Assembly: GCA_963583225.1 (NCBI GenBank)
Contig: CAUZVJ010000001.1
Coordinates: 1-26,764, forward strand
Length of the DNA stretch: 26,764 bases
From: Verrucomicrobiia bacterium
Lineage (GTDB): Bacteria > Verrucomicrobiota > Verrucomicrobiia > Limisphaerales > UBA1096
Reading direction: 5' to 3'
Part shown: piece by piece, positions 4,043 through 25,746 of the stretch
Position numbering within the stretch: position 1 is the stretch's first letter
Layout of the letters: the number at the start of each line of letters is the position of its first letter
Notes under the pieces: generated by a model
Seen by the model: the letters and a program-made list of their open reading frames with translations, nothing else
Told to the model about the DNA's origin: nothing
Databases searched by the model: none
Position numbers and translations under genes: made by a program

Positions 4043-4058
4043 CCGCTTGGCCAAGCGG
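4043..4058. repeat. Palindrome copy CCGCTTGGCCAAGCGG, 3 nt after the miaE stop
   Basis: Perfect 16-bp palindrome read directly. Confidence 0.9.
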
Positions 4059-4061
4059 GGG

Positions 4062-4634
4062 CTAGTGGAGGATATTGAGGTCGCTGGGTTGCTGGACGAG
4101 TTCGGCATCGAGATCCAGGTAGAAGTCGAGACGGCGGTTGGTTTCGGATTCGTCGATCTCCTTGGCCATGAGCAAGTAAGCCGCGTAGTGGTTCCCCTCG
4201 GACTCGACCAAACTGGCGTAAAACTTAGCCAAGGGCGCATCCACGGTAACGAGCGCCTCGGCGAGGATTTGGAATTTCTCGCAACTGCGGCCCTCAATCA
4301 TCGCCGCGCAGAGCAAGTGGTCGATGACCTGTTCATTCCGGCCCTTGCGAACGGTGTTCATGATCCCGGCAATCCACGGGCTGGAGATCGCTTGGCCAAA
4401 CGGTATCCCCCTCTCATCGAGCAATTTAAGAACCAAGTTAAAATGTTCCAACTCCTCGATGGCGATGGCGGTGAGCTCTCCCAGCCGGCCGGTGAGCTGT
4501 TGATAGCGCTGCAGCGTGAGGGCCGACTTGGCCGCTTTTCGTTCCAGATGAGCATGATCGAGCAGTACCGCTCCAAGATTGGCAATGACCTTGGGCAACC
4601 ATGATTCAGGTGGTTTGGCTCGGAGCATCAGCAT
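4062..4634 (-). CDS. miaE: tRNA-(ms2io6A) hydroxylase MiaE (non-heme diiron)
   Basis: LLDHAHLERKAA, EELEHF, AMIEGRSCEKF, YASLVESEGNHY are ferritin-like MiaE motifs. Start MLMLRAK at 4634 chosen. Confidence 0.88.
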   Translation of the reverse strand: MLMLRAKPPESWLPKVIANLGAVLLDHAHLERKAAKSALTLQRYQQLTGRLGELTAIAIEELEHFNLVLKLLDERGIPFGQAISSPWIAGIMNTVRKGRNEQVIDHLLCAAMIEGRSCEKFQILAEALVTVDAPLAKFYASLVESEGNHYAAYLLMAKEIDESETNRRLDFYLDLDAELVQQPSDLNILH

Positions 4635-4754
4635 CAGCGACTCAGCTTCAACAGCGGAGGCGGGAAAGATTAGGGGGGAATCGGCCGTTTGGCAGCACAA
4701 TCGCGACTTTGGGCCTAAAAACAGTTTCCAACCTGTTTTTGAGCATCCTGATGC

Positions 4755-4782
4755 TTGACAGTTGGCAGGTTGCTGTTAGTTT
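4755..4782 (+). promoter_or_regulatory. Putative sigma70 promoter for the rpmH operon
   Basis: TTGACA (4755-4760), 16-nt spacer ending TGn, then TAGTTT (4777-4782). Confidence 0.4.
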
Positions 4783-4890
4783 TTCAGCCCTTTTTCCGGG
4801 AAAGGAGGGGAAAAAGGACGCACCACGAGGTGCATTTTTTAGATTTAGTGGCATCCCACACAAGATTGTGCCGATTTTTAGTAAATTCAG

Positions 4891-5028
4891 ATGAAGCAGA
4901 CATTTCAACCGTCGAATATCAAACGCAAACGCAGGCACGGTTTCCGCGCACGCATGGCCACCAAGGCAGGTCGCAAGATTCTGGCCGGTCGCCGCGCCCG
5001 TGGCCGTGGCCGACTCACCCCCGCCTGA
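4891..5028 (+). CDS. rpmH: 50S ribosomal protein L34
   Basis: Manual translation [45 protein letters not shown] (45 aa, below the track cutoff), immediately upstream of rnpA. Confidence 0.97.
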
Positions 5029-5045
5029 CGCCCTTTCCGGCACAC

Positions 5046-5444
5046 ATGACGGCCTCCGGCCAACTCGCGCGATTCCCCAAATCCAGCCGAATCCAAGCCA
5101 GCGCGGATTTCCGGGCCAACCGGGAACGCGGCAGTCGCTTGGCCAAGGGCTGCATGTTGGCCAACTGGCAAAGCCTCCCGCCGGATGGCGCGTCGCGGCT
5201 TGGCGTGATCACCAGCCGACGCATTGGCAAGGCTCATGTTCGCAACCGCGCCCGGCGGCTCATGCGGGAATGTTTCCGCCTCCACCAACACGAGTTGCTC
5301 CAGCCGGTGGACCTGGTGCTGGTCGCCCGCCGCTCCATTGTCAGCAGGAGATTCCACTCGGTGGAACGCCATTTTCTTGCGCTGCTCAAAAAAGCAGGGC
5401 TGCTGCCGAATGATGCGGCGCCCGTTTATCCCGCCGCCCTTTAG
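5046..5444 (+). CDS. rnpA: Ribonuclease P protein component
   Basis: SRLGVITSRRIGKAHVRNRARRLMRE (RNR motif) and DLVLVARR; position in the rpmH-yidC cluster. Confidence 0.93.
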   Translation: MTASGQLARFPKSSRIQASADFRANRERGSRLAKGCMLANWQSLPPDGASRLGVITSRRIGKAHVRNRARRLMRECFRLHQHELLQPVDLVLVARRSIVSRRFHSVERHFLALLKKAGLLPNDAAPVYPAAL

Positions 5445-5445
5445 A

Positions 5446-5697
5446 ATGAATCCCGCCCAACATCTTCTGGTATTGCTGATCCGGTTTTACCGGCTGGCAC
5501 TATCGCCGCTGAAGAACGCCCTGTTCGGGCCGGGAGGTTCGTGTCGATTTACACCCACCTGCTCGGAGTTCACGCTCGAAGCCGTTCGCTCACACGGGGC
5601 GACCCGCGGTGCATGGCTTGGGCTGCGGCGGCTCGTGCGCTGTCACCCCTGGGGAGGCTGCGGCCACGACCCCGTCCCGAACAAGCTGACCCGTTAA
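5446..5697 (+). CDS. yidD: Membrane protein insertion efficiency factor YidD
   Basis: LIRFYRLALSP, CRFTPTCSEF, RLVRCHPWGGCGHDPVP. Confidence 0.93.
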   Translation: MNPAQHLLVLLIRFYRLALSPLKNALFGPGGSCRFTPTCSEFTLEAVRSHGATRGAWLGLRRLVRCHPWGGCGHDPVPNKLTR

Positions 5698-5706
5698 TTA
5701 TTTTTC

Positions 5707-24521: not shown

Positions 24522-24524
24522 CCC

Positions 24525-24545
24525 GGCCAAGCGCTTGGCCAAGCG
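24525..24545. repeat. Concatemeric palindrome GGCCAAGCGCTTGGCCAAGCG, 3 nt after the esterase stop
   Basis: Longest copy in the window (21 bp, 1.75 units of a 12-bp period). Confidence 0.92.
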
Positions 24546-24600
24546 GCACGCACACTCAACACGCTACGGAATCATTCTTTGTGCAACGGCCCGGGGAAGA

Positions 24601-24821
24601 ATCCCAACGGGATTCCGTCCCGTAGCCCAACGGTTGCATTCAAAAGAATGCTACCTTGGGAAAATGTCAGAATATCGAACCAACCCTGACGGGGTTGCGC
24701 ACCAGCCGTTGCGTATCATTTCACAAACGAAACCCATTCAGGGTTTTATATGTTACCCCGTTCACCCAAGGTAGAAACTGCGTTTCAAACCTTGGGCTGC
24801 AAGACGAAATCCCTGCGGGAT
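24601..24821. mobile_element. About 220-bp non-autonomous REPIN/MITE-like element with about 60-bp inverted arms and nested hairpins
   Basis: Arm 24601-24660 (ATCCCAACGGGATTCCGTCC..AGCCCAA..CTACCTTGGG) is inverted at 24765-24821 (CCCAAGGTAG..CCTTGGGCT..GACGAAATCCCTGCGGGAT). Central AACCCTGACGGGGTT and AAACCC..GGGTTT. No transposase in the window. Confidence 0.65.
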
Positions 24822-24899
24822 ATTCGGTCGCCGCAGCTTGGGCGTCCTGCCACCGTGTTTACGGTAGCTGACAGGGATTCAGGCGGGTTGGTGATTGAG

Positions 24900-25475
24900 T
24901 CAGCGGCCCGCTGCTTCGAGTTCGGCTCCGGTCTTGCCGCCGTGTTTGCGGAGGAGGTTGGCGAGTTGTGTATGCTTGCGCCTGATGGCCCCGCCAAGTG
25001 GTGTGGCGGCAGACTTATCCTTCGCATTCACATCCGCGCTATTGGCAATTAGCAGTTCAGCGACTTCGTGGTGATCTTTTCGAGCCGCAAAATGCAAAAG
25101 AGTCAAATCAGTAAAATCCTTCACATTCACGTCCGCCCCTTTGGCTATAAGTAGTTCGGCGATTTCCTTACGACCACACTCGGCCGCCAAACGCAAAGGA
25201 AGAATAGTTTTTCGGCCTCCAGCAAAACCGCCGCCACCCATGCCGCCAGTTGAGGCAAGAAAAACACCAGTCAACACGCCGGCAGTAACGACTTCAGAAC
25301 TACTCTTCCTACTCGGAATCGGCGCATTTACATCAGCACTCGCATCCAAGCGCTGTTTGACAGTTTCAATATCTCCTTTTTTTATAGCATATGAAAGTGA
25401 GTAGTCTGGCGGCAACATCGTTGCACACCCCACCAACAGCACGGCTGCGATTGTTGTTAAGATTATGTTTTTCAT
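24900..25475 (-). CDS. Ankyrin-repeat lipoprotein
   Basis: Lipobox MKNIILTTIAAVLLVG-C, repeated GADVN(A/V)KD..TPL-like units, tail LLRKHGGKTGAELEAAGR. Confidence 0.88.
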   Translation of the reverse strand: MKNIILTTIAAVLLVGCATMLPPDYSLSYAIKKGDIETVKQRLDASADVNAPIPSRKSSSEVVTAGVLTGVFLASTGGMGGGGFAGGRKTILPLRLAAECGRKEIAELLIAKGADVNVKDFTDLTLLHFAARKDHHEVAELLIANSADVNAKDKSAATPLGGAIRRKHTQLANLLRKHGGKTGAELEAAGR

Positions 25476-25555
25476 AGGTTGAATCTCGGCAAACGCTAGC
25501 AAGTGGGGAGTAATCGTCAAACATCAATTGGCCATCTCGTTTGTTGAGCTAACAG

Positions 25556-25590
25556 GGGTTGGTGCTGTCACACGCGGCACCAACCCTTTT
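25556..25590 (+). terminator. Intrinsic terminator-like hairpin
   Basis: GGGTTGGTGC (25556-25565) pairs with GCACCAACCC (25577-25586), followed by TTTT. Confidence 0.6.
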
Positions 25591-25601
25591 ATCTAAAATC
25601 T

Positions 25602-25617
25602 AAGCGCTTGGCCAAGC
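25602..25617. repeat. Palindrome copy AAGCGCTTGGCCAAGC
   Basis: Read directly; on the minus strand it begins about 2-3 nt after the stop at 25621. Confidence 0.88.
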
Positions 25618-25620
25618 CGA

Positions 25621-25746
25621 TCAAGCCCCAACAAAGTCAAGGGATGCCGCTTCCCCCTCCTTCAGCGGACGCGGCTTGCCGTAATCAACAGGCGTCATGC
25701 ACCCCATCAGGAGGGCGACTGCTATTGATGTGATTATTTTTTTCAT
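25621..25746 (-). pseudogene. 41-aa lipoprotein-signal mini-ORF, probably a truncated gene
   Basis: MKKIITSIAVALLMG-CMTPVDYGK... has a clean signal peptide and lipobox, but only 25 residues follow the Cys. Confidence 0.5.

What the first reader, a model, noticed from the sequence alone, without database searches (positions are those of the whole stretch)
4043..25623. The palindrome is positioned 0-4 nt behind stop codons
Seen: miaE TAG-CCC-CCGCTTGGCCAAGCGG; thrS TGA-CT-GCGCTTGGCCAAGCGC; serA TAG-CCAAGCGCTTGGCCAAGC; ATPase TAG-GCT-GCCAAGCGCTTGGCCAAGC; CE15 esterase TAG-CCC-GGCCAAGCGCTTGGCCAAGCG; mini-ORF TGA-TC-GGCTTGGCCAAGCGC; Lon remnant TAG-TGA-GCTTGGCCAAGCGC (same copy as serA). The best-conserved and longest copies are these. 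As RNA the 16-mer folds to a 6-bp GC-rich stem with a GGCC loop and has no U-tail. Established: REPs stabilise 3' ends, and DUS pairs are enriched in terminators. Inference: a post-stop function (3' mRNA protection, ribosome recycling or trans-translation effects) or targeted insertion at gene ends.
Basis: partly seen in the sequence, partly recalled or inferred. Interest (0 to 1): 0.72.

Follow-up and report, generated by a model that had tools for sequence, protein, structure and literature searches.

The report
Iterated palindrome crowds behind stop codons
A 12-16-base palindrome that litters the genomes of one group of marine Verrucomicrobiota really is about four to five times denser in the first dozen bases after stop codons than elsewhere between genes, most likely because a genome-wide DNA word tied to the DNA-uptake genes settles where it costs least, not because it is an RNA hairpin signal.

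Summary
Five of the seven window examples are solid: miaE, thrS, serA, a T2SSE ATPase and a CE15 esterase. In the whole 2.38-Mb genome, GCTTGGCCAAGC (944 copies) starts 0-11 nt after a stop codon at 4.9-5.5 copies per kb. Elsewhere in spacers it is about 1/kb, and in genes 0.33-0.36/kb. One-mismatch copies and two related genomes show the same peak. Only about 7% of copies sit there; about 70-78% lie inside genes.

An RNA-hairpin function is not supported:
- There is no U-tail, and the stem is weak (-1 to -7 kcal/mol).
- The outer stem positions show no pairing covariation.
- Decay is uncompensated.
- Other hairpins do not cluster at this position.
- True terminators start about 27 nt downstream.
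- Half-sites that cannot fold also abut stops.

The word is common only in genomes that keep the transformation genes ComEC, DprA, ComM and ComFC. It is rare or decaying where all four are missing, which reflects at least two independent losses.

Best reading: a DNA-uptake-sequence/HIP1-like word that piles up in the least constrained DNA behind stops.

This scan has noted the same palindrome in several related genomes before.

The parts
4043..4058 (.). 16-mer palindrome CCGCTTGGCCAAGCGG, 3 nt after the TAG stop of miaE (minus strand, stop at 4062-4064)
9891..9906 (.). 16-mer palindrome GCGCTTGGCCAAGCGC, 2 nt after the TGA stop of thrS (9886-9888) and 21 nt before the serA start. It is kept at this position in most motif-rich relatives.
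11518..11535 (.). 1.5 units (CCAAGC + GCTTGGCCAAGC) that fill the spacer between the serA TAG stop (11515-11517) and the convergent TCA/CTA stops of the Lon-N remnant. The unit number varies from 1.5 to 2 among relatives.
15117..15135 (.). 1.5 units (GCCAAGC + GCTTGGCCAAGC), 3 nt after the TAG stop of the T2SSE ATPase gene (15111-15113). They lie between that stop and the real terminator hairpin.
15142..15169 (-). Canonical intrinsic terminator of the convergent RNase E/G gene: 12-bp stem followed by a T-run on the minus strand. It shows that the organism uses ordinary terminators and that the palindrome is not one.
24525..24545 (.). GGCCAAGC + GCTTGGCCAAGC + G, 3 nt after the TAG stop of the CE15 glucuronyl esterase gene (24519-24521)
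25604..25619 (.). Spacer copy (GCGCTTGGCCAAGCCG).
10953..10964 (.). Coding copy inside serA (frame ..L-G-Q..). It arose by synonymous changes at an L-G-Q tripeptide that already exists in motif-poor relatives.
20557..20568 (.). Copy inside called coding sequence (minus-strand genes 18408-20513 / 20471-21031)
21636..21647 (.). Copy inside called coding sequence (minus-strand gene 21041-21883)
13165..13176 (.). Copy in a 1.1-kb stretch without a gene call (12775-13856). One-mismatch copies lie at 13372 and 13562.
1372..1383 (.). Copy at the 5' edge of the minus-strand open frame 1-1398 (either coding or upstream spacer)

Best explanation
The palindrome (S-C-GCTTGGCCAAGC-G-S) is a genome-wide DNA word, not a gene-end RNA element. 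A process that acts on double-stranded DNA sequence generates and maintains it. That process is most likely the biased uptake and recombination of natural transformation, as for DUS/USS. HIP1, whose maintaining force is unknown, is the other close parallel. The word spreads mainly by point substitution, plus occasional 12-nt unit gains, wherever the change is tolerated. In genes that means synonymous or mild changes in the L-A-K and L-G-Q frames. Between genes it means DNA without another job. The first 12-20 nt after a stop codon are such DNA. They lie under the terminating ribosome, upstream of the terminator hairpin (median start 27 nt), and far from the next promoter and ribosome-binding site. 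Copies therefore reach their highest density there, and in short convergent spacers they can fill the whole gap.

Shown: the enrichment, its specificity to the word, the substitution mode, the lack of hairpin signatures, and the co-distribution with competence genes.
Inferred: that transformation is the driving force, and that low constraint is the reason for the position.
For: The word is genome-wide.
- 944 perfect copies in 2.38 Mb. About 70-78% lie in called CDS, with a strong frame bias: AWPS 69, LGQ 296, LAK 327.
- Spacing is more even than random (CV 0.86 vs 0.97 +/- 0.035).
- Motif-free stretches coincide with mobile DNA.

Density follows expected constraint.
- CDS 0.33-0.36/kb, other spacer about 1-1.7/kb, post-stop 4.6-5.5/kb.
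- Counting copies with up to one mismatch, short convergent spacers hold 9.1/kb, the same as post-stop zones in general. Short divergent spacers hold 0 copies in 36.
- Terminator-like hairpins start at a median of 27 nt after stops and are equally common with (5/32) and without (87/619) a post-stop copy. The window example is at 15117-15169.
- In motif-free spacers, the first 15 nt after stops are slightly the least conserved (0.80 vs 0.84 identity, p 0.065).

Sequence is kept, not pairing.
- Flanks are S-C...G-S in all classes, with no complementarity at the outer pair.
- Decay at orthologous sites is one-sided.
- Coding copies arise by synonymous substitution.
- Motif positions are more conserved than their flanks (85% vs 78%).

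Link to transformation.
- ComEC is found in 14/20 and DprA in 14/20 motif-rich genomes.
- ComM is found in 15/20, two of them partial.
- ComFC is found in all 7 motif-rich genomes tested that carry any of the other genes.
- None of the four is found in the 5 motif-poor species, in G041 or in G011.
- 5/5 outgroup families of the same order have ComEC and DprA, so the absences are losses, at least two of them independent on a single-locus tree.
- The seven genomes with the lowest motif density are exactly those seven.
- The post-stop share of copies (2-9%) moves with the genome-wide population and is not raised where the word is fading.

Published parallel. About half of all DUS/USS lie in terminators, and coding copies are frame-biased (bioRxiv 10.1101/2025.10.24.684340; PMC1852404).
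Against: - Low constraint alone may not give a 4-fold excess over the rest of the spacer. In convergent spacers of 60-400 nt, which have no promoter or ribosome-binding site, copies are still 2.4-3 times closer to stops than uniform placement predicts.
- The conservation dip behind stops is weak and not significant.
- The orientation-specific pile-up of orphan right half-sites exactly abutting the stop (16 + 5 genes) is not predicted by a simple least-cost model.
- TAG stops are over-represented (29/86 vs 19%, p 0.0008).
- The competence-gene contrast has few independent events and is confounded with G+C content (56-62% in motif-rich, 50% in G041, 38-41% in motif-poor).
- G012 lacks the genes but is still motif-rich.
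- Outgroup families have the genes without the word.
- Known uptake sequences are not palindromes.
- All genomes are incomplete MAGs, and gene calls are my own crude ones.
Confidence: 0.55

Rival explanations
1. REP-like RNA function. After transcription, the stop-proximal palindrome folds into a hairpin (or binds a protein). It then protects the 3' end of the upstream cistron from exonucleases, or stalls the terminating ribosome and tunes expression through trans-translation, as reported for E. coli REPs within 15 nt of stops.
For: - The position 0-12 nt after stops is what such a mechanism needs.
- The position is kept at orthologous thrS and serA stops across species 10-20% diverged.
- Post-stop copies are more often full 16-mers or 1.5-unit arrays than coding copies are (32% vs 17%; 24% vs 8%).
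- Occupancy is highest in convergent spacers.
- The REP role in translation rests on my own knowledge (Liang, Rudd and Deutscher 2015). I could not find that paper in the searchable library.
Against: - Only about 7% of copies are post-stop, and only 4-6% of stops have one.
- The hairpins are weak: 12-mer -1.1, 14-mer -3.5, 16-mer -6.9 kcal/mol.
- There is no complementarity at the outer conserved pair.
- Decay is uncompensated.
- Length does not differ significantly from other spacer copies.
- Non-motif hairpins do not cluster there.
- Half-sites that cannot fold show the same placement.
- Both window sites have decayed in G041, and post-stop copies are not preferentially kept in G041 or G011.
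Confidence: 0.15
2. DNA-level function at gene boundaries. A dimeric DNA-binding protein recognises the palindrome at gene ends. Candidates are a nucleoid protein, a topoisomerase (as gyrase at BIME-2 REPs) or a recombinase. The protein would act there as a supercoil relief point, a roadblock or a recombination site, and selection would therefore place copies at 3' ends.
For: - Sequence rather than pairing is conserved, which fits protein recognition of duplex DNA.
- Convergent spacers, where positive supercoils collect, have the highest occupancy: 20 copies (up to one mismatch) in 75 spacers of 12-60 nt.
- Synteny changes directly behind the serA copy in relatives and in metatranscriptome contigs.
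- Spacing is somewhat regular.
Against: - Most copies are inside genes, where such a function would be idle or harmful.
- Density in short convergent spacers equals the general post-stop density, so there is no extra preference.
- No candidate protein was identified.
- It does not explain the dependence on competence genes.
Confidence: 0.12
3. Targeted insertion. The unit is inserted as a small mobile or slippage-generated piece, preferentially next to stop codons (MITE/REPIN-like spread), rather than evolving in place.
For: - Clean 12-nt unit gains are seen at C146:1292 and C217:404.
- A 30-nt post-stop indel carrying 1.5 units is seen at C241:1770.
- The thrS-serA spacer is 12 nt longer in G000 (39 nt) than in the motif-poor relatives G006 and G024 (27 nt).
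- 1.5-unit arrays are more common after stops.
Against: - Distances to the stop vary from -1 to 12 nt with no fixed target.
- Most interspecies differences are substitutions without length change: 101 of 109 aligned copies have no gap.
- Coding copies arise by synonymous substitution.
- Y1/RAYT-type transposases are present in only 5 of 26 genomes, and their loci are motif-free.
- The unit is too short to carry ends for a transposase.
Confidence: 0.08
4. HIP1-type word maintained by an unknown force unrelated to transformation, for example a mismatch-repair or methylation bias. The competence-gene pattern would then be a by-product of lineage and G+C content. The post-stop excess would again reflect low constraint.
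For: - It is a perfect palindrome, abundant in genes and spacers, evolving by substitution, and better conserved than its flanks. All of this matches what is reported for HIP1 (PMC5861425, PMC4390886).
- The competence contrast rests on two to three events and co-varies with G+C.
- G012 is motif-rich without the genes.
Against: - The three common methyltransferase families (PF00145, PF01555, PF02086) and Vsr are missing from the motif-rich clade, so the HIP1-style methylase link is not met.
- Four separate transformation genes show the same presence and absence pattern, including G011, which is nested inside the motif-rich clade.
- HIP1 itself has since been tied to transformation efficiency (bioRxiv 10.1101/2024.09.10.611283).
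Confidence: 0.1

Closest known systems
DNA uptake sequences (DUS of Neisseriaceae, USS of Pasteurellaceae)
   Same: - Hundreds to thousands of copies of one short word per genome.
- Restricted to a clade.
- Present in genes with a reading-frame bias.
- Concentrated just downstream of genes.
- Found in genomes that carry ComEC, DprA, ComM and ComF.
- Depleted in foreign DNA.
   Different: - The word is a perfect palindrome, so single copies rather than inverted pairs give the symmetry.
- Post-stop copies are not part of terminators: there is no U-run, and true terminators lie further downstream.
- Only about 7% of copies are at gene ends, against about half for DUS/USS.
- The phylum is Verrucomicrobiota.
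- Uptake bias and a receptor are untested.
HIP1 (GCGATCGC) and alternate highly iterated palindromes of cyanobacteria
   Same: - A short perfect palindrome at about one per 1-2.5 kb in genes and spacers.
- Propagates by substitution.
- Conserved above its flanks.
- Quasi-regular spacing.
- Recent reports link HIP1 to transformation.
   Different: - It is longer (12-16 bp).
- No cognate orphan methyltransferase was found.
- No enrichment relative to stop codons is reported for HIP1. Xu et al. 2018 tested only start sites and left out the first 10 nt after stops (PMC5861425).
REP/BIME elements (REPINs with RAYT transposases) of enterobacteria and pseudomonads
   Same: A palindromic repeat found shortly after stop codons, including inside operons and between convergent genes.
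   Different: - REPs are strictly extragenic, 20-40 nt long and imperfect, form stable hairpins and come with a RAYT gene.
- Here most copies are coding, the hairpins are weak, and Y1 transposase loci carry no copies.
Rho-independent terminators
   Same: A self-complementary G+C-rich sequence downstream of genes.
   Different: There is no U-tract, the stem is only 4-6 bp, and the copy lies upstream of the genome's true terminators.

Membership tests
DNA uptake sequences (DUS/USS) | One short word present in hundreds to thousands of copies, in genes and spacers, far above chance | tested here: met
   944 perfect copies in 2.38 Mb against 1 for the reversed control. 18 copies (12 perfect, 6 one-mismatch) in the window against 0.16 expected.
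DNA uptake sequences (DUS/USS) | Restricted to a related group of species and absent from neighbouring families | tested here: met
   330-1852 copies in 19 of 24 sampled species of the genus, and 0-3 in 16 other families of the order.
DNA uptake sequences (DUS/USS) | Coding copies sit in preferred reading frames at low protein cost | tested here: met
   Frames are AWPS 69, LGQ 296 and LAK 327. The serA copy was made by synonymous changes at an existing L-G-Q.
DNA uptake sequences (DUS/USS) | Spacer copies concentrated downstream of genes, within terminator stems | tested here: inconclusive
   The gene-end concentration is met. Terminator membership is not: there is no U-run excess, and terminators start about 27 nt downstream and are independent of the copy.
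DNA uptake sequences (DUS/USS) | Host carries the DNA uptake and processing genes | tested here: met
   ComEC, DprA, ComM and ComFC are present across the motif-rich genomes. All four are absent in the 5 motif-poor species, G041 and G011.
DNA uptake sequences (DUS/USS) | The word biases DNA uptake or transformation through a specific receptor | not testable with these tools
   This needs a cultured strain or a heterologous uptake assay.
HIP1-type highly iterated palindromes | Short perfect palindrome, hyper-abundant in coding and non-coding DNA, conserved above its flanks, spreading by substitution | tested here: met
   (85% vs 78% identity; 101 of 109 aligned copies without gaps).
HIP1-type highly iterated palindromes | Orphan DNA methyltransferases that recognise the core of the word | tested here: not met
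   PF00145 is found in 2/26 genomes, PF01555 in 1/26, PF02086 in 1/26 and Vsr in 1/26. Apart from single PF00145 (G010) and Vsr (G020) hits, they are missing from the motif-rich genomes. Type I/IIG methylases were not tested.
REP/BIME (REPIN-RAYT) | Strictly extragenic imperfect palindromes of 20-40 nt | tested here: not met
   About 70-78% of copies lie in called CDS, and the unit is a perfect 12-16-mer.
REP/BIME (REPIN-RAYT) | Single-copy RAYT (Y1 transposase) gene flanked by the repeats | tested here: not met
   Y1_Tnp is found in 5/26 genomes and not in G000. The intact loci L154-L156 have no copy within 1.5 kb.
REP/BIME (REPIN-RAYT) | Stabilises upstream mRNA or modulates translation termination | not testable with these tools
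   The RNA runs hold only sparse contigs and give no 3' ends.
Rho-independent terminators | Stable G+C-rich stem-loop directly followed by a U-tract | tested here: not met
   A T-run follows 8.4% of post-stop copies against 8.2% of control stops. Fold energies are -1.1 to -6.9 kcal/mol.

The most novel reading that the evidence does not exclude
The stop-adjacent copies are more than passengers. The word, or its right half GCCAAGCG set exactly against the stop codon, would be a sequence-specific signal after translation termination or at the gene boundary. This signal would have been recruited from a transformation-dependent palindromic uptake word. It would be read either on the mRNA by the terminating ribosome or an RNA-binding factor, or on DNA by a dimeric protein. 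That would make it a new kind of gene-end punctuation in a phylum with no described uptake sequence.
Probability: 0.12. Interest if true: 0.8.

Novelty: new variant of a known kind. Interest (0 to 1): 0.55.

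Why it matters
What keeps hyper-abundant short words such as HIP1 in bacterial genomes has been debated for thirty years. Uptake sequences are established in only two proteobacterial families. Here a palindromic word in uncultured marine Verrucomicrobiota shows the signatures of an uptake sequence: a frame bias in genes, a pile-up at gene ends and restriction to one clade. It also fades in the lineages that lost ComEC, DprA, ComM and ComFC. That gives a natural experiment on whether transformation maintains such words.

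For annotation, the result is a caution. A conserved palindrome right after a stop codon is not by itself evidence for a terminator or an RNA stabiliser. The exact abutment of half-sites to stop codons remains unexplained and is cheap to test with reporters.

Tried and rejected
- RNA evidence. Six metatranscriptome runs hold only 6-10% of the sampled words of the 8-kb test stretch (7500-15500), and only as assembled contigs. Laying four of them gave short low-depth pieces and no pile-up of ends. This is no evidence either way.
- Canonical terminator reading. Rejected, because there is no U-run excess and the genome's terminators are separate.
- Composition artefact. Rejected: G+C is flat (0.51-0.56) over the first 60 nt after stops.
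- Short-spacer artefact. Rejected by placing copies uniformly within each spacer, and by analysing convergent spacers alone.
- Mis-set start codons hiding an equal peak before genes. With the longest-ORF starts, the first 30-90 nt of 'genes' were enriched. After refining the starts, the profile upstream of starts is flat at about 1-1.7/kb and the post-stop peak remains.
- m5C methylation plus Vsr repair drive. Rejected, because the genes are absent. N4/N6 and Dam-type methylases are also absent.
- RAYT/REPIN spread. Rejected.
- Truncated coding copies (a TTG-to-stop change in the R-L-A-K frame) as the origin of half-sites at stops. Rejected, because the preceding codon is motif-like in only 2 of 18 cases and TAG is not dominant.
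- Stops embedded in one-mismatch copies. Essentially none exist.
- ComEA via the HHH_3 family. Uninformative, because it hit long unrelated ORFs in both groups.
- Within the motif-rich clade, the ratio of perfect to one-mismatch copies does not track the number of competence genes detected. G011 is the exception, being lowest.
- Literature. No paper mentions this word in Verrucomicrobiota.

Full report
**What was checked.** The finding claims that a palindrome (core GCTTGGCCAAGC) sits 0-4 nt behind stop codons in a 26.8-kb window. It infers from this either a post-stop function or targeted insertion. I then looked for signatures that separate an RNA-hairpin function from a DNA-level word.

**The window.** The 12-mer occurs 12 times perfectly and 6 times with one mismatch, against 0.16 expected. 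It gives a weak Lon-N match for the remnant.

Reading the sequence confirms five clean cases:
- miaE: TAG-CCC-16-mer (4043-4058).
- thrS: TGA-CT-16-mer (9891-9906).
- serA: TAG followed directly by 1.5 units (11518-11535).
- ATPase: TAG-GCT-1.5 units (15117-15135).
- CE15: TAG-CCC-1.7 units (24525-24545).

The Lon remnant shares the serA copy. The 'mini-ORF' at 25606 is not a credible gene. Five of 12 perfect copies post-stop is well above the genome average, so this window is a rich sample.

**The organism.** The organism is an uncultured marine Verrucomicrobiota MAG of 2.38 Mb in 322 contigs, about 60% complete, with 60% G+C.

**Genome-wide test.** No gene finder was available, so I wrote a codon log-odds caller (1875 genes, 1690 with a stop).
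- Of 944 perfect copies, about 70-78% lie in called coding sequence, depending on how starts are set.
- Perfect copies start 0-11 nt after a stop at 4.9-5.5 per kb of available positions. Deeper in spacers the rate is about 0.3-1.7/kb, upstream of starts 0.5-1.9/kb, and in genes 0.36/kb.
- Placing each spacer's copies uniformly within that spacer gives 34 +/- 3.5 copies within 12 nt of a stop. The observed number is 62.
- One-mismatch copies peak in the same way. Two-mismatch copies barely do.
- With the longest-ORF starts, the first 30-90 nt of 'genes' looked enriched. After trimming starts with the coding model, the profile upstream of starts is flat (about 1-1.7/kb) and the post-stop peak is unchanged.
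- The bias is not a short-spacer effect. In convergent spacers of 60-150 and 150-400 nt, copies are 2.4-3 times closer to a stop than uniform placement predicts (p 0.0006 and 0.005). Divergent spacers show no bias toward starts.
- The peak recurs in 318 kb of G010 (11 observed vs 5.7 +/- 1.5) and, more weakly, in 700 kb of G017.

In absolute terms the effect is modest: about 7% of copies are post-stop, and 4-6% of stops have one.

**Is it an RNA hairpin element?** Several independent tests say no.
1. U-runs follow 8.4% of post-stop copies and 8.2% of control stops. Predicted folds are weak: 12-mer -1.1, 14-mer -3.5, 16-mer -6.9 kcal/mol.
2. The genome has ordinary terminators. One clear example lies at 15142-15169 for the convergent RNase E/G gene, right behind the ATPase copy. 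Terminator-like hairpins start at a median of 27 nt after stops. They are as frequent with a post-stop copy (5/32) as without one (87/619). The copy sits in the gap between stop and terminator.
3. Non-motif hairpins show no peak at 0-12 nt. Counts per 6-nt bin are 44, 30, 40, 34, 45, 45, while motif hairpins give 16, 14, 5, 2, 4, 2. G+C is flat over the same range. There is no general demand for structure at this position.
4. The flanks of the 12-mer are S-C...G-S in coding, post-stop and other spacer copies alike. The outer S..S positions are not complementary more often than chance: post-stop 22 paired vs 19 unpaired, CDS 107 vs 159. Sequence is kept, not pairing.
5. At the orthologous thrS and serA stops, the copy is at the same place in most motif-rich species. 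Where it has decayed, the changes are one-sided.
6. Post-stop copies are longer than coding copies: 32% vs 17% are 16-mers, and 24% vs 8% are arrays of 1.5 units or more. They are not significantly longer than other spacer copies.
7. Orphan right half-sites (GCCAAGC), which cannot fold, abut the stop codon exactly in 16 genes, plus 5 genes with TA[G]CCAAGC. The left half shows no such spike.

**What the word is.** Across the genus, 19 of 24 sampled species carry 330-1852 perfect copies and five carry 6-14. Sixteen other families of the order carry 0-3. Further properties:
- Coding copies are strongly frame-biased.
- Coding copies arise by synonymous substitution at tripeptides that already exist in motif-poor relatives.
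- Between G000 and G017 (about 80% identity), motif positions are better conserved than their flanks (85% vs 78%).
- 101 of 109 aligned copies differ without gaps. Clean 12-nt unit gains and one 30-nt post-stop indel do occur.
- Spacing is somewhat more regular than random.

These are the properties of HIP1 and of DNA uptake sequences. The scan has already recorded this same palindrome in several related genomes. I found no publication on it.

**What maintains it.** The HIP1-style explanation (cognate methyltransferases, or a Vsr-type repair bias) is not supported. C5, N4/N6 and D12 methylases and Vsr are essentially absent from the motif-rich genomes. Y1/RAYT transposases occur in 5 of 26 genomes, and their loci are motif-free.

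The natural-transformation genes, in contrast, follow the word:
- ComEC: 14 of 20 motif-rich genomes and 0 of 6 others.
- DprA: 14 of 20 and 0 of 6.
- ComM: 15 of 20 (two of them partial) and 0 of 6.
- ComFC: 5 of 5 well-assembled motif-rich genomes, plus G000 and G017. It is absent from the five motif-poor species, from G041 and from G011, and G012 has only a marginal partial hit (E 9.6e-4).

Five of five outgroup families of the order have ComEC and DprA, so the absences are losses. On a single-locus tree the motif-poor species form one clade. G041 branches at the base of the motif-rich clade, and G011 is nested inside it. That gives at least two independent losses.

Ranked by copies per Mb (up to one mismatch), the seven lowest genomes are exactly the seven without any of these genes. 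They are G011 at 404, G041 at 192, and the motif-poor clade at 14-32. The others range from 475 to 960.

Caveats:
- These are few events among related, incomplete MAGs.
- G+C falls in parallel (56-62%, 50%, 38-41%).
- G012 lacks the genes yet is motif-rich.
- The outgroups have the genes without the word.

I read this as good, but not conclusive, support for a transformation-linked drive of the DUS/USS kind.

**Why behind stops.** Density follows expected constraint: genes lowest, then general spacer, then the post-stop zone. Counting copies with up to one mismatch, short convergent spacers (which consist only of two post-stop zones) have the same density as post-stop zones in general, 9.1/kb. 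Short divergent spacers have none.

The first 12-20 nt after a stop lie under the terminating ribosome, upstream of the terminator and away from the next promoter. In motif-free spacers that could be aligned, they are slightly the least conserved part (0.80 vs 0.84 identity, p 0.065).

Post-stop copies also rise and fall with the whole population. Their share is 4.4-8.8% in G000, G010 and G017, 6.5-8.6% in G011 and 2-3% in G041. They are not preferentially retained where the word is fading, although the numbers are small. Both window sites examined are decayed in G041.

This parallels published work in which about half of DUS/USS lie in terminators and coding copies are frame-biased (bioRxiv 10.1101/2025.10.24.684340; PMC1852404). 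The difference here is that single palindromic copies sit before the terminators rather than forming them. For HIP1, no stop-codon analysis has been reported. Xu et al. tested start sites and excluded the first 10 nt after stops (PMC5861425).

**What remains unexplained.**
- The 4-fold excess over the rest of the spacer persists in convergent spacers.
- The conservation dip behind stops is weak.
- TAG stops are over-represented (29 of 86 vs 19%, p 0.0008).
- The right half-site sits in exact register with the stop. Sixteen of the 74 TRR+GCCAAGC strings in the genome are gene stops. The preceding codon is not motif-like, so these are not truncated coding copies.

A sequence-specific effect at termination, or a protein bound at gene ends, is therefore not excluded. 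I give these rival readings about 0.15 and 0.12.

**Verdict.** The functional interpretation is not supported by any structural signature. The most likely explanation (0.55) is a DNA-level, probably transformation-maintained word that accumulates in the least constrained DNA behind stop codons. It is a new variant of a known kind (uptake sequence / HIP). The competence-gene link and the stop-abutting half-sites are the points most worth following up.

**Limits.** All gene calls and statistics rest on my own simple caller and on incomplete MAGs. The comparative samples are partial genomes: 276-749 kb of each of the four relatives sampled (G010, G011, G017, G041).

Noticed in passing
genus-wide (G000-G024, G041); G000:C73:5027-5872 (ComEC), G000:C98:506-1078 (ComFC): ComEC, DprA, ComM and ComFC are found only in genomes rich in the palindrome. 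All four are missing from the five motif-poor species, from basal G041 and from nested G011. Outgroup families of the order have ComEC and DprA, so these absences are losses that coincide with low or fading motif density.
   Followed up: yes
G000 genome-wide, e.g. C36:7434-8573, C95:7383-8639, C99:5893-7218: The orphan right half-site GCCAAGC(G) directly abuts the stop codon in 16 genes, plus 5 genes with TA[G]CCAAGC. The effect is orientation-specific, and the upstream codons are not motif-like. It remains unexplained.
   Followed up: partly
window 15137-15169: A clean intrinsic terminator (12-bp stem, T-run on the minus strand) for the RNase E/G gene shares a 73-nt convergent spacer with the ATPase post-stop palindrome.
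   Followed up: yes
window 11532-11540; L082, L085, L086, L096: Gene order changes directly behind the serA palindrome. Several relatives and two metatranscriptome contigs continue with a different convergent gene from position 11532 on, so a synteny break coincides with the copy.
   Followed up: no
G000 C146:1292, C217:404, C241:1770 against G017: There are clean 12-nt (one-unit) length differences inside arrays of the word, and a 30-nt post-stop block with 1.5 units present in G000 but not in G017. Unit gain or loss therefore occurs alongside substitution.
   Followed up: partly
G017 sample (700 kb), orthologues of G000 copies: The commonest decayed forms are GCTTAGCCAAGC and GCTTGGCTAAGC, a C-to-T change at the outer C of the central GGCC. 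G017 is also 5-6 points lower in G+C and lacks a detectable ComEC.
   Followed up: no
G000 C35 (13.5 kb); L154-L156: One 13.5-kb contig and all intact IS200/IS605-type Y1 transposase loci carry no copy of the word, as expected for recently acquired DNA.
   Followed up: no
window 13857-15113: A 418-aa T2SSE-family ATPase (PilB/PilT-like) lies in the window. It could belong to a type IV pilus relevant to DNA uptake. I did not examine it further.
   Followed up: no
motif-poor genomes G001, G004, G006, G008, G024: Even these genomes hold 52-96 copies with up to one mismatch, against 2-6 for the reversed control. The ratio of perfect to one-mismatch copies is above random expectation. This looks like a relic of an ancestral word.
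   Followed up: partly
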